A stretch of 64,000 bases of DNA from Eledone cirrhosa (taxonomy: Eukaryota): the NCBI GenBank assembly GCA_964016885.1, contig OZ024742.1:314154001-314218000 (forward strand). The letters are read 5' to 3'. Of the stretch, positions 13,279-64,000 are shown in pieces; position 1 is the first letter of the stretch, and the number at the start of each line of letters is the position of its first letter. The translations under genes were made by a program, and so were the position numbers. The notes beneath the pieces were generated by a model, which had not been told where the DNA came from, did no database searches, and saw only the letters and a list, made by a program, of their open reading frames with translations.

Positions 13279-14148
13279 GTATGTCTGTTGCTGTACGTGA
13301 GCGTGTATATGTGTGTACATATCTAATGTCACGTAATTATTATACCCTCTACAAAGGTCATGGTGCATATACAATTGCGACAGACTATGCTATATACCAC
13401 AAAACAAAGTTGGATAGAAAAATTTAACGGATAATACATCTGAATCACAGAGAACTTCCAACAACATGGATGTTTAATTGTGGAGGCTTTCTTTATATCA
13501 TAATAAAACTCTAAATCTACGATATCACGCACGCATCATAAGCAAGTAACTGATAACTTGTAAGTATAACGATCAAACGTCAAATTTGAAATTCCGGTAG
13601 TGTATACATTTAAAATTCTGACATAAGAAATGTTATAGAAACTTTCATTAAATACATTTTCCTACCGTAAAAGAAGAGAAACATTGATTCGAGTATAGAT
13701 CTAGGGATTTATTAATTCAAACGTGCTGCAAATGTCTAATGAGAAAATATGAGAAAACTGATAAAAACGTTAAAACTCAAAAGTTTTCTGTCTTCAGAAA
13801 ACACACACACACACACAGACACACACGCCCCCTCCCACACATACATACACAAGCGCACACACACACTCACACGGGCTGGTATAAATTAATTTGAGAAATG
13901 TAAATAAATTAAAGAAATATTTTCATTGAGCAAAACTCAACATGAGCTGCTCCCAAATTAATTTTTATTAAGATCTTAATAATTGTTTTTATTAATTCCT
14001 TCATCGAACCAAATTGGTATTTGTCAGACTCCCTCACATATATGTCTATTCTTGTGTGTATATATATATATAAATATACATATATATAAATGTAAGTATG
14101 TATGTATACGTACATACATATATGTATACAGACGTACAGTAGCATGCA

Positions 14149-14186
<38 letters not shown>

Positions 14187-14342
14187 TACATACAGGTACA
14201 CATGCATATATGCACGCATCAGTTTAGCGGAGGGTTATTATAACGCCGCTTTGTTCGTTTGTAAACAAACTGAACAGCCTGAATTTATGCCATACGGTGT
14301 TAAGGCAACCACGTCACCTTTTTGTTCAACACTGACACAGGA

Positions 14343-14385
14343 ACGATGTACTAGTTTCAAGCTTGTTAGCTATCATCAGCACCGT
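14343..14385 (-). ncRNA. type I hammerhead (family A)
   Basis: acggtg CTGATGA t agct-aaca-agct t GAAA ctag TA catcgt. Stem I is 6 bp, and the base of stem II is a T.T mismatch. Confidence 0.75.
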
Positions 14386-14459
14386 ATACATATCTGCCAG
14401 ATAGTTGAACGTTCGAAAGTATATACTTTCCTTATGAAAATTAACGGCTGAGCAGCCTA

Positions 14460-14467
14460 ATTTGCAT
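14460..14467 (-). promoter_or_regulatory. octamer motif ATGCAAAT within a block conserved with family C
   Basis: Exact octamer about 88 nt upstream of the HHR core. Function is inferred only. Confidence 0.45.
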
Positions 14468-14621
14468 ATTGAGTGAGTTAAATCGGTCAGGCATACCGAA
14501 AACAATAGGTTGAAATAAAATGAAAACGAAATTTCATTTCTCACTCTTAGTATGGCACTTACTTAAATGTAAGTATGTATGTATACGTACATACATATAT
14601 GTATACAGCCGTACAGTAGCA

Positions 14622-14680
<59 letters not shown>

Positions 14681-14741
14681 CGTAAAATAAGAAAATTAAA
14701 AAAAAAAATTTTTTTTTAAATTTTAACTTACTTAAATTTTC

Positions 14742-14823
14742 ACTCCAACTAATTAGTTTCTGCAATGGGATAAAGACAGTTACGTAATCCAACTGTCGAG
14801 AATTCATTGCGTCATCAGGGAGT
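14742..14823 (-). ncRNA. type I hammerhead (family B, copy 1)
   Basis: actcc CTGATGA c gcaatg...gacagtt...aactgtc...cattgc a GAAA ctaattag TT ggagt. Confidence 0.8.
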
Positions 14824-15291
14824 CTATTCTCAGCTAAGTCTTCAGGCAATGCGCGGACACCGGGGACTCATAAAAATAATAATAATTCGGTAGATGGAAC
14901 AGCTAGCGGGGGCTGAATTCCATGCACTGAAATCCTCGCTGCCTCTGGTCAAATGGTCGATTCTAAAGAATCAATCACGTGACACAGAGGCTAGTCAGTA
15001 GGAATGGGATGGTAAGATGACAGACGCCTACTAACACCCCCCAAAAAAAATTTAGAAGTGGTTTTGGCAGGTTTGCTCGACAAATCAGTGATTTGGAGAT
15101 AAATATAGATAATTTAATATATCTACTAACATAAGCGCACATATGTACGCAAATGCCAGCAAATACACAGGTTATGTCATAGTATCTAGGTGGTTCAATG
15201 CAGGAGGATGCAGAACAATAATATAAAAGACGTAAAATAAGAAAATTTTTAAAAACATTTTAAAAAAAAATGTTAACTTACTTAAATTTTC

Positions 15292-15373
15292 ACTCCAACT
15301 AATTAGTTTCTACAATGGGATAAAGACAGTTACGTAATCCAACTGTCGAGAATTCATTGTGTCATCAGGGAGT
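15292..15373 (-). ncRNA. type I hammerhead (family B, copy 2)
   Basis: As copy 1, with a stem II G-C pair replaced by A-T (15312/15360). Confidence 0.8.
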
Positions 15374-15842
15374 CTATTCTCAGCTAAGTCTCCAGGCAAT
15401 GCGCGGACACCGGGGACTCATATAAAAATAATAATAATTCGGTAGATGGAACAGCTAGCGGGGCTGAATTCCATGCACTGAAATCCTCGCTGCCTCTGGT
15501 CAAATGGCCGATTCTAAAGAATCAATCACGTGACACAGAGGCTAGTCAGTAGGAATGGGATGGTAAGATGACAGACGCCTACTAACACCCCCCCAAAAAA
15601 ATTTAGAAGTGGTTTTGGCAGGTTTGCTCGACAAATCAGTGATTTAGAGATAAATATAGATAATTTAATATATCTACTAACATAAGCGCATTGATGTACG
15701 CAAATGCCAGCAAATACACAGGTTATGTCATAGTACCTAGGTGGTTCAATGCAGGAGGATGCAGAACAATAATATAAAAGACGTAAATTAAGAAAATTTA
15801 AAAAAAAATTTCTTAAAAAAATTTTAACTTACTTAAATTTTC

Positions 15843-15924
15843 ACTCCAACTAATTAGTTTCTGCAATGGGATAAAGACAGTTACGTAATCCAACTGTCGA
15901 GAATTCATTGCGTCATCAGGGAGT
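15843..15924 (-). ncRNA. type I hammerhead (family B, copy 3)
   Basis: Same motif as copy 1. Confidence 0.8.
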
Positions 15925-16395
15925 CTAATCTCAGCTAAGTCTCCAGGCAATGCGCGGACACCGGGGACTCATATAAAAATAATAATAATTCGGTAGATGG
16001 AACAGCTAGCGGGGGCTGAATTCCATGCACTGAAATCCTCGCTGCCTCTGGTCAAATGGCCGATTCTAAAGAATCAATCACGTGACACAGAGGCTAGTCA
16101 GTAGGAATGGGATGGTAAGATGACAGACGCCTACTAACACCCCCCAAAAAAAAATTTAGAAGTGGTTTTGGCAGGTTTGCTCGACAAATCAGTGATTTGG
16201 AGAGAAATATAGATAATTTAATATATCTACTAACATAAGCGCATTGATGTACGCAAATGCCAGCAAATACACAGGTTATGTCATAGTACCTAGGTGGTTC
16301 AATGCAGGAGGATGCAGAACAATAATATAAAAGACGTAAAATAAGAAAATTTTTAAAAAAATTAAAAAAAAAAATGTTAACTTACTGAAATTTTC

Positions 16396-16477
16396 ACTCC
16401 AACTAATTAGTTTCTGCAATGGGATAAAGACAGTTACGTAATCCAACTGTCGAGAATTCATTGCGTCATCAGGGAGT
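16396..16477 (-). ncRNA. type I hammerhead (family B, copy 4)
   Basis: Same motif as copy 1. Confidence 0.8.
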
Positions 16478-16905
16478 CTATTCTCAGCTAAGTCTCCAGG
16501 CAATGCGCGGACACCGGGGACTCATATAAAAATAATAATAATTCGGTAGATGGAACAGCTAGCGGGGGCTGATTCCATGCACTGAAATCCTAGCTGCCTC
16601 TGGTCAAATGGCCGATTCTAAAGAATCAATCACGTGACACAGAGGCTAGTCAGTAGGAATGGGATGGTAAGATGACAGACGCCTACTAACACCCCCCCCA
16701 AAAAAAAAAATTTAGAAGTGGTTTTGGCAGGTTTGCTCGACAAATCAGTGATTTGGAGATAAATATAGATAATTTAATATATCTACTAACATAAGCGCAC
16801 AGATGTACGCAAATGCCAGCAAATACACAGGTTATGTCATAGTACCTAGGTGGTTCAATGCAGGAGGATGCAGAACAATAATATAAAAGACGTAAAATAA
16901 GAAAA

Positions 16906-17538
<633 letters not shown>

Positions 17539-17767
17539 CAATATCGGAGAAAGCTTTCTAGCGATACTCCGGCCAAATTCCAACTCACTCAACAAACATT
17601 AGGAAATAAGTGATTATATTCCCAATTATGTGTTCGGGGTGCTAACTAAAAGTATTGCGTGGAAAGTTGGCTGTATTATTTCAAATGAGATATATCTAAT
17701 ATAATATATATATATATATATAGTGACGAAACATAAGTCAATTGCAGTAACTCATAATCCTTTATTT

Positions 17768-40310: not shown

Positions 40311-43300
40311 TCTTCTGATTTTATAATTTCACAAATTTTTTCCCGAGAGAGTCGGTTTCTAACATAGACACAAGACTCTCATTGGAATTTACACAACATC
40401 AACTAGGTAGATTACGTATGCATGCATGTGTAGATATGGATGTTATTGTATCCATGGATGTGTATGTTTTGAGTTGTATGTGTGCATGTGTATATGCTTT
40501 GTATCTGTACATGTGTATATGCAGTTATTAGATGCAACATTTTTGGAATGTTTTACATATTTTTACTGTTCCATTAATGGATTTTACTTGTAATTTCCTA
40601 GCTTTTCAAGAATTGTATTGAGGCAGTTACTAACATACCCCAGTGCCACAGTAATCACAGGCATAAATCTGAAGGTGTAATCAGGGTGGAGTATCTGCAT
40701 ATTTCTCATCAGTTCTGCATAAATATTCTCCTTTTCGCTAATCTTTGATATTATATTGTCATCTGCTGGGCAGCTAATTTCCACTACTGAGCATGCTTTC
40801 TTCTCCCTATTCCATATCATAATATCTGGTCTGTTATGCCTGCATTTTATTGGGGTTTTTACTGGAACATTCCACCAGTACTCTTTCATATTATGTACAT
40901 GGATGTCTTCCACATGGCTGTAGCTTTTAATGTGTTTATTATCGGGGCTATCCTTTTTACAAACTGCATTGTACAGTGTTTTGGCCACTACATCATGCCT
41001 CATAGGTAGATAGTACCGCGATGACATCTTTGGACAGCTACTGATGACATGGGTGATATCCTCGATGTTAGTTCTGCAGAGTCTGCACTTGTTATCACAT
41101 CTAGGTGTTTTGCCTGCATCCCTATCTCTTTTATGAATCAGGTATTTCGTGTTAATCTCCTGTTCTTGGATTGCAAAAGCGTATACTTCAAAGTGGGAGC
41201 CAATATAGCGATTGTTGGTCCAAGATAGACTACTTTCCTTATCTATATTACTCTCACTCTGGAGCTTCCTGGAAACATATTCATGCATGATTTTTTGCTG
41301 ATAAGCATGCAGATTTTCATCCATGGATTCACTGCGATACTGCCGAGCGACTACCCTGGGTATGAGTTTTTGATTATCACACAGGGAATATCTCTCGAGG
41401 AGTTCCTTCCCAACTCTCATGATCGTATCTGTTTCATGCAGATAGACTTGCTCGAGAAACGGGCTCCTACGCTTCGAGGTTCGTAGATGTTGTCGGAGAG
41501 ATATGATGCGACATTCAAATGTTGTCTGGACTAATGTTAGGCCTCCGCCTTCCTGATTACGTTTCAAGTAAAGGCGGTCTATGTCACTGTTGATGTGGAA
41601 GTTTCCGGTGTTGTTTAGTATTTTTCGAGTTCCAACATCAACTGCTCGGATTTCGTCTATCGTCCAATTGAGTATTCCAAAGGTTGGTGTTAGGACAGGC
41701 ACAGCAAACACATTGTGAGCCACTGTTTTGTTTTGCGCAGAGAGTTCCGATGACCAGATCTTTCTTGATCGGGTGTAGTATTCCCTGGTTACGCGTTATC
41801 CATTATAGGATATGTTCTCATCTATCCCCAGATATCTATAGCACTCCTCATCAGATATCGCTGAGACAGTTAGGCCATTGAAGACAATGTTTCTAGATTG
41901 GGTTGTTGTTTTCCCCGCTTTACAGTCATGTATGAGCATTTATCTTGGCCAAACTCCATTCCTATATCCTTTGAGAACGTTGTAACCAGGTCAAGATTTT
42001 TCTTCATCCCATCCATGTTCTTGGCATAGAGTTTCAGATCGTCCACAAAGAAATTATGGGTTAGGTTCGTATTTCTGTCCTCCTGTGAGCCAATGATGTA
42101 TTCTTCACATTTCTTCAGCAGAAAGGACAAGGGGTTTAATGACAGGATGAATAATATCACAGAGAGACTGTCTCCCTGAAATATACCCCTGCTATATTTT
42201 ATTTTATCAGTGAAAATAGAGTCCTCCCTCTCTGTCTTTAACCTTAGGATAGTAGCCCAAGAAGAAGACAGCTTCTCTATGGCTCTGATAATAATGTCTG
42301 GGACTTTAGCAAGTCGAAGAGCCTCTATCATCCAAGAGTGTAAAGCTTTCCTGTAGTCCAGCCAGAATGTAGCCATATTCCTCCTAAGTTGTCGCACCTC
42401 TGACATCGCAGTTTTGTTGATTAGGAGTTGTTCAGCCCATCCCAAAACCCCTTTCTTTCCAGCTGCTTGTTCATCTGTGATGATGTTATTATTTTCACAG
42501 TGATCTTGGAGGAATAGGTTCAGGCAGGCTGTATACATCTTATACATCCGGTTCTGGTATGCAATGGGTCGGTAGTTTTTTGCCAAGCGGGTGTCTTTGT
42601 TCTTGGGACCAGTAATGTTTGTGCTAATGTCAACCATTCTGGTATAAGTGTATCTCCTTTAAGAACTTGTTTGTAGAGGTCAATAAGATACCTCCGATAG
42701 AATATCAGTTTTTTGTACCAGTAGTAGACAATCATGTCTCTTCCTCGTGTTTTCTTATCTTGGAGTTTTCCTATCACAGTCTCAACGGTACCCTCACTTA
42801 TTTCGTATGTTTTTGTTGTAGTGTAGGAGCAATAGTTCTTTCGGATTTCTCTTAGCCACACTGCATCTTGGTTGAAATTCTTCTTTTCACCCCATATTTT
42901 TCTCCAGAAGTAATCTGTTTTCCTGGGATGGGGCCTCAGTGACACTTATTATTTTGTTCTTCATATCTCTATAGACTGATGTTTGCTTTCGTCTGAATCT
43001 TTTATTAAGCGCTTTTCTCTCATCTACCTTCTTCAGGTATCGGCGTTTTTCGCTAACAGCTCTCAGTTCTTGTTTGAGGGTGATCAGCTTATATTGAAAA
43101 GTTCTGGTTCTACTGTTACCAAACATCGTCTCTATTTTATTTTTCACTCTTTGTTGGTGAGGAGTGAGGTTTTTTTGTGTGTGTTTGCATGTAAAGAGCA
43201 TTGTCACATATCCTATGGTTTTTCGTAGGTCAGCAATCTTCTTTTCTGTTTTAGTTATATATGATGGTATTTTTGGTGGTGTTCTGTTCTTGTTAATATC

Positions 43301-44438
43301 TCTGCTATCACCAAGATAATGCTTCACTATCTAGGCGTTGATTTGCCAAAATGTTGGTGGTTTTATCCGTCGTAAATATTCATCCCCTATTTCGTCAATA
43401 ACACGTAATATTTCATTATTTGTTTTTTTATTAAACATGGTCGTTTTAATACGTTCAGCAAGAGAGATATTTATACATGAATTAATTTCTCTCTGGAAGA
43501 TTTCGTTCAGGAAAATTTTCAATAGTTTATACTTTTGATTATTATCATTATCGATAGTATTTTCCATAACAGTCGAGGTAGACTCGGATGGTACAGGTGG
43601 TGTCAAATTTCTTCGATTATTATTATTATTTCTTCGATTATTATTATTATCGATATTATCGATATTATCGATATTATCGAAAGGCGGTGGATTGGCAGTA
43701 TCGGTAGAAGGTCGGACGCCATGCTTTGCGGCATAGAGTTACGGCCCTTGCCATTCTGAATTCAAATCCCGCCGAGGTTAACTTTGCCTTTCATCCTTAC
43801 GGGGTCGATAAAAATAAAGTACCAGTAATGCACTGGGTATTTGCTGGCCTTGTGCCACAAGTAGAAACAATTATTATTATCGATAGTGTTTTCCCCAGCA
43901 TTCGATGTAGACTTAGATGGTACAGGTGGTGTCAAGTTTCTTACAGGCATAGTTGTTTCAAGGCGCTGTTCAACCTGGCTGCTAGGAAGTCTAGTAGCAT
44001 GGCGACCTGTAGCACGTGTTGTTGATTCCATGTTTGTTGTGGGGGACTTACAATTAATAATATTTATTTTATTTTTACGTTCAACAAATGTCGCTTGTTG
44101 GCGTAATTGTTTCGCTGTGAAATAATTTAGCTCTGGGTGCATTTCGTCCCAGTGTAACTTCATTCTGTTCATATAGCCAATGGAGGGATTGTTTTTTGCC
44201 ATTTTATAACAATTAAATAAATCATTATTAAGTTCGCAACTCCAAGAGAAATGTGATTTATAATTTCGGTCTCTTCTGTAGCTACAACTGAATAAAGTGT
44301 GTTTACCTTTCTTGTTGCTTGTCTTCGATACTTGCTTAATTTTGTTTTTGATTTTGTGTTCAGCCATGCTGTTTGTAGCAAATCCTTGTAAAATGAATTA
44401 TGTATTTAGTCGGATATCTCTACGAATTCGAATAAAAG
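40311..44438 (-). mobile_element. near-full-length R4/Dong-like non-LTR retrotransposon, frameshifted
   Basis: N-terminal WSCELN..CY..GYMNRM..W..P motif (43762..44367). RT motifs NYRPI, LDYRKA, RGIFQGDSLS, FVDDLK (41870..42637). Zn knuckle CRLC..H..SSC, RHD and RPD..E restriction-like endonuclease (40584..41723). The 3' UTR ends at (CATA)n. Confidence 0.9.
43681..43875 (+). mobile_element. SINE inserted into the R4-like ORF
   Basis: Complete consensus copy flanked by TSD-like tattatcga on both sides. Confidence 0.9.
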
Positions 44439-45966
44439 GTGTATATGCAGTTATTAGATGCAAAGTTTTTGGAATGTCTTACATATTTTTACTGTTCCAT
44501 TAATTGATTGTACTTGTAATATTCCTAACTAGTTGTGTTCTTTCTGTTCCTGTGAAACCTAGCTTCTCAAGATTTGTATTGAGGCAGTTACTAACATATC
44601 CCAGTGCCCCAATAACCACAGGCATAAATCTGAAGGTGTAATCAGGGTCGAGTATCTGCATATTTCTCATCAGTTCTGCATAAATGTTCTCCTTTTCGCT
44701 AATCTTTGTTATTATATTGGCATCTGCTGGGCAGCTAATTTCCACTACTGTGCATGCTTTCTTCTCCTTGTCCCATATCATAATATCTGGTCTGTTATGC
44801 CTGCATTTTATTGGGGTTTTTACTGGAACATTCCACCAGTACTCTTTCATATTATGTACATGGATGTCTTCCACATTGCTGTAGCTTTTAATGTGTTTAT
44901 TATCGGGGCTATCTTTTTTAGGAATTGCAGTGCTTTGGCCACTACATCATGCCTCATAGGTAGATAGTACCGCGATGACATCTTTGGGCAGCTGCTCATA
45001 ACATGGGTGATATCCTCGATGTTAGTTCTGCAGAGTCTGCACTTGTTATCACATCTAGGTGTTTTGCCTGCATCCCTATCTCTTTTGTGAATCAGGTATT
45101 TCGTGCTAATCTCCTGTTCATGGATTGCAAAAGCGTATCCTTCAAAGTGGGAGCCAATATAGCGGTTGTTGGTCCAAGATAGACTACTTTCCTTATCTAT
45201 ATTACTCTCACTCTGGAGCTTCCTGGCAACATATCTATGCATGATTTTTTGCTGATAGGCATGCAGTTTTTCATCCATGGATTCACTGCGATACTGCTGA
45301 GCGACATCCTTGGGTGTAAGTTTTTGATTATCACACAGGGAATATCTCTCGAGGAGTTCCCAACTCTCATGATCTTATCTGTTTTATGCAGATAGACCTG
45401 CTCGAGAAACGGGCTCCTACGCTTCGAGGTTCGTAGATGTTGTCGGAGGGATATGATGCGACATTCAAATGTTGTCTGGACTGATGTTAGGCCTCTGCCT
45501 CCCTGCTTACGTTTCAAGTAAAGGCGGTCTATGTCACTGTTGATGTGGAAGTTTCCGGTGTTGTTCAGTATTTTTCGAGTTCCAACATCAACTGCTCGGA
45601 TTTCGTCTATCGTCCAATTGAGTATTCCAAACGTTGGTGTTAGGACAGGCACAGCAACACATTGTGAGCCACTGTTTTGTTTTGCGCAGAGAGTTCCGAT
45701 GACAGATCTTTCTTAATCGGGTGTAGTATTCCTTGGTTACGCGTTCTTTATTAAATATACCATTATAGGATATGTTCTCATCTATCCCCAGGTATCTGTA
45801 GCAGTCCTCATCAGATACCGGTGAAACAGTTAGGCCATTGATGACAATGTTGCTAGATTGGGTTGTTGTTTTTCCCCGCTTTACAGTCATGTATGAGCAT
45901 TTATCTTGGCCAAACTCCATTCCTATATCCTTTGAGAACGTTGTAACCAGTTCAAGATTTTTCTTC
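44439..45966 (-). mobile_element. second, 5'-truncated R4/Dong-like copy
   Basis: Highly similar to 40513-42006. ORFs 44500..46007 carry the RT C-terminus, Zn knuckle and endonuclease. Confidence 0.9.
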
Positions 45967-46161
45967 GGTACATCTACATATGTATACGTGTGTGTATTCA
46001 TATGCATACTAGTATTTCAGTATACATATGTGGATGTACATTTTTAACTTAATTGTTTAAGCGTCAGTCATACAAAAGTGAGTTACAAACGAAACGAAAT
46101 TTAATTTCGTTTCGTTATTTGTTTTTATCGTCTCCGTTGAACCGGTACGTACTCACGCTCT

Positions 46162-46169
46162 ATGCAAAT
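46162..46169 (+). promoter_or_regulatory. octamer motif ATGCAAAT (also at 46628-46635)
   Basis: Exact octamer 100 nt upstream of the HHR core, in a block shared with family A. Confidence 0.45.
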
Positions 46170-46254
46170 TAGTCTGCCCACTACTAATTTTCATAGAAAA
46201 AGCATATAACGATATGTGCTTTTATAATTCTCTAGAGAGGCCGTAAGATAGGTA

Positions 46255-46299
46255 AATATTGCTGATGAGATGTAACAACATCGAAACTAGTTCAATATT
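46255..46299 (+). ncRNA. type I hammerhead (family C, copy 1)
   Basis: aatattg CTGATGA gatgt-aaca-acatc GAAA ctag TT caatatt. The core is canonical and stems I and II are perfect. Predicted cut after 46292. Confidence 0.9.
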
Positions 46300-46720
46300 C
46301 CTTGTCTGGCTTTCTGGAGAATAGAGGAAAGGTGTTTCCTCAAAAACCAGTATGACTCTAAAAACCGGTTTGTCTGTGTGTTTACATACAGAATAGCTGG
46401 ACACTCACAGTAAAGTGACCAGTGAAAAACTCGGTACATCTACATATGTATACGTGTGTGTATTCATATGCATACTAGTATTTCAGTATACATATGTGGA
46501 TGTACATTTTTAACTTAATTGTTTAAGCGTCAGTCATACAAAAGTGAGTTACAAACGAAACGAAATTTAATTTCGTTTCGTTATTTGTTTTTATCGTCTC
46601 CGTTGAACCGGTACGTACTCACGCTCTATGCAAATTAGTCTGCCCACTACTAATTTTCATAGAAAAAGCATATAACGATATGTGCTTTTACGATTCTCTA
46701 GAGAGGCCGGAAGATAGGTA

Positions 46721-46765
46721 AATATTGCTGATGAGATGTAACAACATCGAAACTAGTTCAATATT
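46721..46765 (+). ncRNA. type I hammerhead (family C, copy 2)
   Basis: Identical to copy 1. Confidence 0.9.
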
Positions 46766-47131
46766 CCTTGTCTGGCTTTCTGGAGAATAGAGGAAAGGTG
46801 TTTCCTCAAAAACCAGTATGACTCTAAAAACCGGTTTGTCTGTGTGTTTACATACAGAATAGCTGGACACTCACAGTAAAGTGACCAGTGAAAAACTCGG
46901 TACATCTACATATGTATACGTGTGTGTATTCATATGCATACTAGTATTTCAGTATACATATGTGGATGTACATTTTTAACTTAATTGTTTAAGCGTCAGT
47001 CATACAAAAGTGAGTTACAAACGAAACGAAATTTAATTTCGTTTCGTTATTTGTTTTTATATATATATATATACATATATAACTGGATTACCTATAACAA
47101 TAATTTGTTATCACATATATATATGTATATA

Positions 47132-62580: not shown

Positions 62581-64000
62581 TATAAGTATGTGTGGTTGTA
62601 TATACATGTGGTTCTCGTATTTTGCCAAACATAACATTAAGGTAGATTATTGTAGTATTCATTACACTTAAATGTGATCAATACTGGAATCATGAGATCA
62701 GACATGATATAATACCTACTCTGACAAGTGCCATAATCTCCTTCTCGCAATAAAGATTAGTAACTTGGCACCTTCTCGTTTTTGTATAGAAATACCATGG
62801 TAATAAAATGCATTCATCAATACCAGTTATAGGCAAAACGATATGTTTCTATTTTATGAACTTCATAAAGCATAGTGAAGTAAATGGAAAAATATACAAA
62901 AACGTTTCGGGTGTGACGCTGTGAGACTAAGATATTTTTTCTAACGTAGGCACAAAGTCAATCACTCTGGAGAAAGGCAAAATCGATTAAATCGACCCTA
63001 GTACTTTACTAGTGCTTTATTTTATCGGCAAATTTGACCACGGTGTGATTTTGAACTCAGGACGTAAAGGGTTGTAATTGAATGATGAAAAGTATTTTGT
63101 TCTACATTCTGAAGATTCTCACAATTCACCACTCTAGAAAAGTATGGAAGGCTTAACAAATTTTCGCGTCTTTCTTGCGCATGGGCTAGGCTCGACTTCT
63201 CTTTATCGTTCCAACTTTAGTTAGTGCCCAAGCTAGTTAGTGAGGTTTAAAAAATGGTTTCTGATTTAGGCACAAGGCACAATTTCCTTTCTTTTAGGCA
63301 CAATTTCTTTTCTTTTACAGCCTTGCCACCAGGAAGTCGGCCGGTCAGAAATGTACTCGAAATTAAGAGAAACGGAACATACATGCATATATATATATAT
63401 ATATAGATTTCACGGGGGTGAAATCTATATATATATATATATATGCGGCTACAAAAACCCGATGGGCTGCCTCAGGGTAAGCGAAAGAGGAAAAAGGAAA
63501 AGGAAGAGGAGAGGGACTGGAAGTAAGTGAGAAGAAGAGATAGAGAAAAAAAAAATAAGAGTATTACATCTATCTATGTAAGCTGGGGTTTCCCCTATCT
63601 TGTTCGGCAAGTGGGGAAAATAAAGATGTTACAGCCATTGTCTACCTACCCGGGTCGTGTGGGGGTTTGAAAGCAAGGTAAGTCCTACGCACGGCGTCCT
63701 CCCCAGTAGGAGTTAGCTCTGGAAAGTAAGCTCTAACTAAGATGGTATTTGATGTTATTATCTTGTTATTATCTGTATAATTCTATTTTCGCTTACTTTC
63801 TAGCTAACCTACTTTATCCACACTCCTTAGAGATTGCTGTATAGAATTTACTTTTAACGCTAGACCGGCTTCCCCTATCCCTCTTTGTTCTACAGGCAAG
63901 TTCAGCCACCCCACCCCCTACCTGCCGCCATGAAATATTTAACTGCGTTTACAAGGAACTTTGGCCACTCCTTTTGATAACTACAACCTTCATAAAAGCC

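What the first reader, a model, noticed from the sequence alone, without database searches (positions are those of the whole stretch)
14671..16908. ~551-bp x4 structured array with a long-stem-II hammerhead and a compensatory base-pair change
Each unit carries actcc-CTGATGA-(gcaatg..gacagtt/aactgtc..cattgc)-GAAA-CTAATTAG-TT-ggagt on the minus strand. In unit 2 both partners of one stem II pair changed together (G14762/C14810 to A15312/T15360), although units differ at few other positions. One of the two changes is at a CpG, so chance is possible. The rest of the unit is a chain of hairpins (agtctcc/ggggact, atggaa-cagc/gctg-ttccat, gcctctg/cagaggc, agtagg/cctact). The monomer is larger than the roughly 170-400 nt I recall for animal retrozymes.
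Basis: partly seen in the sequence, partly recalled or inferred. Interest (0 to 1): 0.75.

Follow-up and report, generated by a model that had tools for sequence, protein, structure and literature searches.

The report
Pseudoknotted long-arm hammerhead retrozyme array
Four tandem copies of an abundant animal genomic repeat each carry a hammerhead ribozyme motif with an unusually long second arm that is predicted to dock by a pseudoknot, and the repeat's insertion ends match those of a Penelope-like retrotransposon that likely copies it around the genome.

Summary
The array is real: four 550-556 bp units, each with a type I hammerhead on the minus strand. It belongs to a family with about 9,100 such motifs in this 3-Gb genome. 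The unit-2 'compensatory' change is a genome-wide singleton (1 of 3,906; 0.07 expected), so it is weak evidence. Stem II does covary across subfamilies (93% of cells paired). The C.A mismatch is a family trait (101 of 103), not a lesion, and 551 nt lies within a published size range.

New points: (1) the stem II internal loop (UUCUC) is complementary to a leader before stem I (GAGAA), with matched changes in a subfamily and in a distant family, predicting a pseudoknot; Rfam misses this hammerhead. (2) Insertions sit in (TA)n and end at +76 or about +194; 20 of 20 classable two-armed loci have one of each, as does an RT/GIY-YIG Penelope-like element here. (3) This array is fused to a second retrozyme family, and another copy is fused to a Penelope-like end.

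Verdict: a new structural variant of non-LTR retrozyme, likely mobilised by Penelope-like elements. Cleavage, expression and circularisation are untested.

The parts
14671..16908 (-). Family A array: four units plus a partial fifth. The left end is the family's short terminus (+76 from the cleavage site); the right end is 5'-truncated at about +49.
14742..14823 (-). Type I hammerhead, unit 1: stem I 14819-14823/14742-14746, core 14812-14818, extra C 14811 opposite extra A 14761, stem II 14762-14810, predicted cleavage between 14747 and 14746 after GUU
15292..15373 (-). Hammerhead, unit 2, with the singleton A10.1-U11.1 (15360/15312)
15843..15924 (-). Hammerhead, unit 3 (its leader has a private change at 15928, GAGAA to GAGAU)
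16396..16477 (-). Hammerhead, unit 4
14748..14757 (-). Palindromic stem III ACUAAUUAGU: no stable hairpin alone, 10-bp duplex of -9.0 kcal/mol between two copies
14827..14831 (-). Leader GAGAA, predicted pseudoknot partner (unit 1)
14798..14802 (-). Stem II internal-loop strand UUCUC, predicted pseudoknot partner (unit 1)
15118..15167 (-). Conserved 20-bp hairpin (+130 to +179) between the two termini; 98.9% paired, 4 pairs with two-sided change; candidate RT-binding structure
15010..15186 (-). Long-range helix 15175-15186 with 15010-15021; 97% paired, 2 pairs with two-sided change
15103..15103 (-). Position +194, the family's long terminus; internal here, not used as an end in this insertion
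14625..14675 (.). (TA)n tract inside the left family-B unit, in which the array begins
14087..14675 (-). Family B retrozyme (about 471-nt unit), left arm, ending at B's short terminus (+256); short-stem hammerhead at 14343-14385
16908..17098 (-). Family B pieces joined to the array's 5' end through a T-run: B +30 back through the hammerhead (16932-16974) to +377, then B +109 to +40
17101..17441 (+). Inverted family B arm, +31 to the long terminus +315, ending in (TA)n; abuts the other B piece at +30|+31 in RNA coordinates

Best explanation
The array is four units of a non-coding tandem repeat with a type I hammerhead motif in every unit, and it is likely a non-autonomous non-LTR retrozyme copied into (TA)n tracts by a Penelope-like element's reverse transcriptase and endonuclease. 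Inferred cycle: arrays are transcribed (minus strand here). Neighbouring hammerheads pair through the palindromic stem III and cut after GUU, while the long stem II docks on stem I through a 5-7 bp pseudoknot between its internal loop and a leader just before stem I. The 551-nt monomer would be circularised, or an uncut multimer serves as template. The PLE enzyme would nick (TA)n and prime one target strand at +76 and the other at about +194, giving tandem arms in inverted orientation. In this window the +76-primed cDNA likely ran four rounds and then jumped onto a family-B RNA being copied from its long terminus, so the insertion is chimeric. Shown: sequence, copy number, covariation, end positions, (TA)n flanks, junctions as assembled. 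Inferred: cleavage, dimer action, pseudoknot formation, expression, circularisation, PLE as the enzyme, template jump.
For: Core and stems. 9,141 motifs against 0 control. Stem II covariation. Further covarying helices outside the ribozyme, 98.3% paired, so selection acted on RNA structure. Palindromic stem III duplex, as described for dimeric metazoan hammerheads (PMC4209133). Ends: of 59 loci, 30 had two outward-facing end calls; 20 had both ends classable and all 20 were one short plus one long, almost all in (AT)n. Family D 9 of 9 (23 loci); family B 4 of 5 (25 loci). A 938-aa RT plus GIY-YIG element (L131) has hammerhead pLTRs ending at about +79 or +145 in (TA)n, 4 of 4 classable two-armed loci short plus long (30 loci). 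This matches the PLE 'tail at one end' (PMC8557442) and two internal RT start sites (PMC11167929). In L009 an A arm joins directly to that PLE's last 220 nt, which supplies the missing long end. Pseudoknot: GAGAA/UUCUC in most subfamilies, GAAAA/UUUUC in one (549 matches with a GAAAA leader; 91 of the 100 listed, counted by eye, belong to that subfamily), GGAAA/UUUCC at the same spacing in family D (860 matches). A Watson-Crick run of 5 or more occurs in 66-67% of matched leader/loop pairs against 0-5% in swaps involving A1.
Against: Nothing was assayed. The cleavage triplet is GUU in 102 of 103; U17 is a poor position (recalled; two searches gave no passage on it). The predicted fold pairs core CUGAU with AUUAG, blocking the monomer. 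Eight of nine predicted Xenopus retrozyme dimers did not cleave in vitro. No autonomous PLE with a pLTR homologous to family A was found among 50 GIY-YIG loci out of 10,596 candidates. The A-PLE fusion is one case; none more among 30 PLE-end loci. The pseudoknot rests on about three independent sequence solutions, about a third of distinct matched pairs fall below a 5-bp run, and in family A the leader can instead extend stem I through G.U-rich pairs. One B locus scored long plus long (L034). One A locus (L088) had two nominally long calls, one of them an internal alignment break; it was left unclassed with nine others.
Confidence: 0.8

Rival explanations
1. Family A is not an independent retrozyme but the pseudo-LTR of an unfound autonomous PLE; the arrays are 5'-truncated PLE ends.
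For: Same end architecture as PLEs. Only 50 of 10,596 GIY-YIG candidates were inspected. Retrozyme-pLTR homology is reported in Xenopus.
Against: Full monomers repeat head to tail with no ORF, in runs of many units (C2:312.657-312.666 Mb). Monomer length stays 521-572 nt across subfamilies down to about 70% identity. No shared non-A sequence at 21 truncated 5' junctions.
Confidence: 0.1
2. The hammerhead is catalytically silent or very slow in vivo; the structure is kept as a protein-binding or RT-recognition fold, and uncut multimeric RNA is the template.
For: GUU triplet and mismatch at the base of stem II. Core-blocking fold. Ribozyme mutants did not affect insertion by the anole PLE in vitro. 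cDNAs run across the cleavage site.
Against: Stem I, stem II and the leader/loop pairing covary across subfamilies. A U.U mismatch at the base of helix II is compatible with cleavage in axolotl HHR_Amex2, better as a dimer. Core invariance is not independent evidence, because my search patterns required it.
Confidence: 0.2
3. For this locus only: the array inserted later into the (TA)n of an older B insertion and deleted about 140 bp; no template jump took place.
For: All these families target (TA)n, B carries an internal (TA)n, and the outer ends are B-short and B-long, as a plain B insertion would have. Side-by-side insertions in one tract are common.
Against: The two right-hand B pieces abut exactly at +30|+31, as expected if the A cDNA end primed on the same B RNA. 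A-short plus B-long also satisfies the end rule. Left and right B copies carry different private changes (2 and 5 in 95 nt).
Confidence: 0.4
4. A satellite expanded at the DNA level by unequal crossing-over or slippage, with no RNA step.
For: Some long arrays show repeated variants in several units (C3:255.0 Mb; C1:156.4 Mb).
Against: Thousands of dispersed short insertions with two fixed ends, inverted arms, (TA)n flanks and RNA-level covariation.
Confidence: 0.04

Closest known systems
Metazoan non-LTR retrozymes (Cervera and de la Pena 2020, PMC7229834; coral, mussel, axolotl)
   Same: Non-coding tandem repeats, one type I hammerhead per unit, GC below 50%, predicted self-paired monomer, co-occurrence with PLEs; a mismatch at the base of helix II as in HHR_Amex2.
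   Different: Monomer of 521-572 nt against 170-400 nt; 51-nt stem II with an internal loop against the canonical 4-bp stem with a terminal loop; predicted Watson-Crick pseudoknot in place of non-canonical loop contacts; fixed short/long termini and inverted arms not mentioned in the parts read (parts 2-4 of 6).
Vertebrate non-LTR retrozymes as PLE derivatives (bioRxiv 10.64898/2026.07.22.740005)
   Same: Size within 51-972 bp; few units per locus; PLE as proposed mobiliser.
   Different: Their link is co-occurrence and pLTR homology; here it is shared end geometry and direct chimeras, and no homologous pLTR was found.
EN+ Penelope-like elements and their hammerheads (PMC4209133, PMC8557442, PMC11167929)
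   Same: [quoted passage not shown]
   Different: No ORF; tail of about 118 nt against 30-40; much longer stem II than the 7-8 bp reported.
Pseudoknot-stabilised hammerheads (Perreault et al. 2011, PMC3088659)
   Same: [quoted passage not shown]
   Different: Here the partner is an internal loop within a long stem II, in a high-copy animal retrozyme; passages read show no such example, and supplements were not seen.

Membership tests
Type I hammerhead ribozyme | CUGANGA/GAAA/UH core with three stems, stem I open | tested here: met
   two extra nucleotides (C after A9, A before G12)
Type I hammerhead ribozyme | Match to an Rfam hammerhead model | tested here: not met
   No hit at gathering or at E up to 10 over 14000-17600; only the B motifs hit HH9, at E 0.13-0.16, below gathering
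Type I hammerhead ribozyme | Stem I-II tertiary contact | tested here: inconclusive
   Predicted pseudoknot with matched changes; few independent events
Type I hammerhead ribozyme | Self-cleavage | not testable with these tools
   Needs an assay
Non-LTR retrozyme | Tandem non-coding repeats with a type I hammerhead in consecutive units | tested here: met
   no ORF of 150 aa or more within the array
Non-LTR retrozyme | Dispersed, high copy number | tested here: met
Non-LTR retrozyme | Stable self-paired monomer | tested here: met
Non-LTR retrozyme | Expression as linear and circular RNA | not testable with these tools
Non-LTR retrozyme | No LTR, PBS or PPT | tested here: inconclusive
   No LTR-like architecture in locus maps; PBS and PPT not searched
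PLE-mobilised element | Inverted/tandem insertions with a tail at one end, AT-rich targets | tested here: met
PLE-mobilised element | Autonomous EN+ PLE in the same genome | tested here: met
   L131
Autonomous PLE or its pLTR | RT-GIY-YIG ORF flanked by this sequence | tested here: not met
   0 of 50 loci; small sample of 10,596 candidates

The most novel reading that the evidence does not exclude
An undescribed animal hammerhead architecture, with a long stem II whose internal loop forms a Watson-Crick pseudoknot with a leader before stem I, is shared by two unalignable retrozyme families (about 10,000 motifs) and is invisible to Rfam. Their insertions show that a Penelope-like enzyme primes the two target strands at two different fixed RNA sites, one each, and can take the two ends from different RNAs (retrozyme plus retrozyme, retrozyme plus PLE). 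That would be direct genomic evidence for PLE mobilisation of retrozymes and a testable model for PLE tails and inverted repeats.
Probability: 0.45. Interest if true: 0.72.

Novelty: new variant of a known kind. Interest (0 to 1): 0.52.

Why it matters
The element class is known, but its mobiliser has been argued from co-occurrence and homology (PMC7229834, PMC7761336, the 2026 preprint), and how PLE tails and inverted repeats form is stated to be open (PMC8557442). A strict one-short, one-long end rule shared by three retrozyme families and an autonomous PLE, plus cross-RNA chimeras, gives exact predictions for an in vitro priming assay. The long-arm hammerhead adds a structural variant that Rfam misses, with natural compensatory pairs ready for mutant-rescue tests.

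Tried and rejected
Unit-2 double change as covariation: singleton. C.A as lesion: family-wide. Rfam: no match to the long motif. The RT in the window (41870-42658) as partner: it has a CCHC/PD-type C-terminus like restriction-endonuclease LINEs (recalled motif), no GIY-YIG hit and no similarity to the PLE. pLTR homologous to family A: none in 50 loci. More A-PLE fusions: none in 30 loci. Sequence homology of A with B or C: only a 12-mer, E 0.25. Global alignment of A with D: uninformative. RNAalifold pairing of the core with +65 to +76: short, invariant, no covariation, not claimed. Expression: no RNA holder listed; the four runs laid were contigs of unrecorded kind and no listed piece bridged the A-B junction, so neither says anything for or against. 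Earlier findings of the scan: none returned. Literature: searches listed no paper on a long-stem-II pseudoknotted animal retrozyme hammerhead or on retrozyme-PLE chimeras; the library is partial, PMC5785218 (PLE hammerhead variants) was not held, and supplements were not read.

Full report
Observation. The array is as described: units of 550, 551, 553 and 556 bp from 14673, 95-97% identical, with a partial fifth unit ending at 16908. Each has a type I hammerhead on the minus strand with 51 nt between CUGAUGA and GAAA. One unit folds far better than shuffles (z -6.6 linear; circular z -6.3 against -4.1 for the other strand). Rfam does not detect the motif. The source is an unnamed 3.0-Gb, TA-microsatellite-rich genome; I infer an animal.

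A large family. A pattern for this hammerhead has 9,141 matches and its reversed control none. Close copies are 92-98% identical over the full unit; subfamilies fall to about 70%, with monomers of 521-572 nt. Window units differ from the column majority of their subfamily at 8-10 of about 495 positions, like other copies (three units compared).

It hits G10.1-C11.1, which PMC4209133 calls highly conserved. Genome counts in this subfamily group are G-C 3,871, A.C 24, G.U 10 and A-U 1, the last being unit 2 itself. Independence predicts 0.07. It never spread, so I treat it as likely chance after insertion. The real covariation lies between subfamilies. In 43 distinct motifs (picked by me for diversity from 70 distinct stem II sequences), 93.2% of cells pair, 12 of 22 pairs have two-sided changes, and slid controls give 37-47%. 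Related sequences inflate the shuffle control, but four pair types at 10.2 with 43 of 43 paired is strong. The architecture is C.A mismatch, 6-bp helix, pyrimidine-rich internal loop, apical helix. The C.A is in 101 of 103 motifs. An extra base after A9 is known from PLE hammerheads, and a U.U at this place from an active axolotl motif. Stem III is a 10-nt palindrome with no stable hairpin alone but a -9.0 kcal/mol duplex, which suggests action as a dimer. Against efficient cleavage: the GUU triplet (102 of 103; its weakness is recalled) and a predicted core-blocking helix.

Predicted pseudoknot. The 5' strand of the internal loop (UUCUC, 14798-14802) stays constant while the flanking helices change, and it is complementary to an equally constant leader three bases before stem I (GAGAA, 14827-14831). 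One subfamily reads GAAAA/UUUUC: 549 motifs have a GAAAA leader, and 91 of the 100 listed belong to that subfamily (by eye); this is one evolutionary event, and the other nine look like sporadic mutants. A second family, D (457-459 nt, 860 motifs), found by chance beside a PLE, has a different long stem II and stem III and reads GGAAA/UUUCC at the same spacing. Among distinct leader/loop pairs (45 A1, 3 A2, 19 D), a Watson-Crick run of five or more occurs in 66-67% of matched combinations, 0-5% of swaps involving A1, and 28-70% between A2 and D, whose motifs are alike (leaders truncated into microsatellite were dropped). The rival is that the leader extends stem I through G.U-rich pairs, which RNAfold gives for family A (it cannot predict pseudoknots); by eye family D lacks that option. 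Pseudoknot contacts are common in hammerheads generally (PMC3088659, passages).

Rest of the monomer. Better supported are a 20-bp hairpin at +130 to +179 and a long-range helix, together 98.3% paired with 6 of 30 pairs changed on both sides (structure derived from the same alignment, so it leans in favour).

Insertion ends. Counting from the cleavage site, copies end at +76 or about +194, nearly always in (AT)n. Of 59 loci, 30 had two outward-facing end calls. Twenty had both ends classable, and all 20 were one short plus one long. Ten were unclassed because one alignment broke elsewhere, including L088, whose two nominally long calls include an internal break. Family D behaves alike (+86/+191; 9 of 9 among 23 loci), family B mostly (+256/+315; 4 short-long and 1 long-long among 25 loci). 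The genome has many GIY-YIG elements (10,596 candidates, 150 scored). One, L131, has a 938-aa frame with RT and GIY-YIG hits (RT just under Pfam's cut-off) between hammerhead-bearing repeats that end at about +79 or +145 in (TA)n; 4 of 4 classable two-armed loci are short plus long. This is the PLE signature of inverted arms and a tail at one end (PMC8557442, passages) and of two internal RT start sites on AT-rich targets (PMC11167929, parts 1-2 of 4). No PLE with an A-like terminal repeat appeared in 50 loci. In L009 an A arm joins directly, without a TA tract, to the last 220 nt of that PLE, which provides the long end opposite A's short end; no second case was found in 30 PLE-end loci.

This locus. 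The array is enclosed by a second retrozyme family, B, with a short-stem hammerhead at 14343-14385 and 16932-16974. From the left: B short end (14087), 1.2 B units, (TA)n, A from +76 for four rounds, a T-run junction to B +30, a short rearranged B piece, then an inverted B arm from +31 to the long end (17441) in (TA)n. The exact abutment at +30|+31 suggests that the A cDNA end primed on the B RNA that was being copied from its long end. Later insertion of A with a deletion remains possible (about 0.4). The junction rests on the assembly alone.

Comparison and verdict. It works like, and on every feature testable here qualifies as, a non-LTR retrozyme (PMC7229834, parts 2-4 of 6; PMC7761336, passages). 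Its size is within the 51-972 bp of bioRxiv 10.64898/2026.07.22.740005 (parts 1-3 of 5), which also reports that 8 of 9 tested dimers did not cleave. Cleavage and circular RNA, which define function, are untested. My eight searches of a partial library showed no description of this hammerhead architecture or of such chimeras; PMC5785218 was not held and supplements were not read, and either could contain a similar motif. I score it a new variant of a known kind, interest 0.52.

Noticed in passing
window 45965-47060 (+): A 466-bp x2.4 array (family C) with short-stem hammerheads at 46255-46299 and 46721-46765, about 65% identical to family B. B and C both carry ATGCAAAT, an octamer motif recalled from snRNA promoters.
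   Followed up: partly
window 40584-46000 (-): Broken, partly duplicated non-LTR retrotransposon frames with an RT hit and a C-terminus like restriction-endonuclease LINEs, directly beside the family C array.
   Followed up: partly
L132:5695-6233 and L151-L180: Family D retrozyme, 457-459 nt, 860 motifs, long stem II with U.U at its base; arrays of over 20 units at C1:156.4 Mb.
   Followed up: yes
L131:2419-7435 (-): PLE with a 938-aa RT-GIY-YIG frame; its terminal hammerhead has the U3-A8 core covariant; 2,580 matches to a 41-nt terminal motif.
   Followed up: partly
L182, L187, L192, L196, L200, L206: PLE terminal fragments often break at one position just upstream of their hammerhead and not at the cleavage site, suggesting a transcription start or strong stop.
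   Followed up: no
L143:2350-2399, L138:7482-7527: Further hammerhead types near PLE frames, one with an A.A mismatch at the base of stem II.
   Followed up: no
window 63138-63245 (-): Diverged U6 snRNA match, 55.5 bits, likely a pseudogene.
   Followed up: no
window 15828-16143: Low-depth contigs from two other coded organisms (runs X5, X6) align at about 93-95% over 180-320 nt; relatives may carry the family.
   Followed up: no
window 15488-15498 and equivalents: GTCACGTGATTG and TTTGTYGAGCAAA motifs are nearly invariant across subfamilies; possible internal promoter elements.
   Followed up: no
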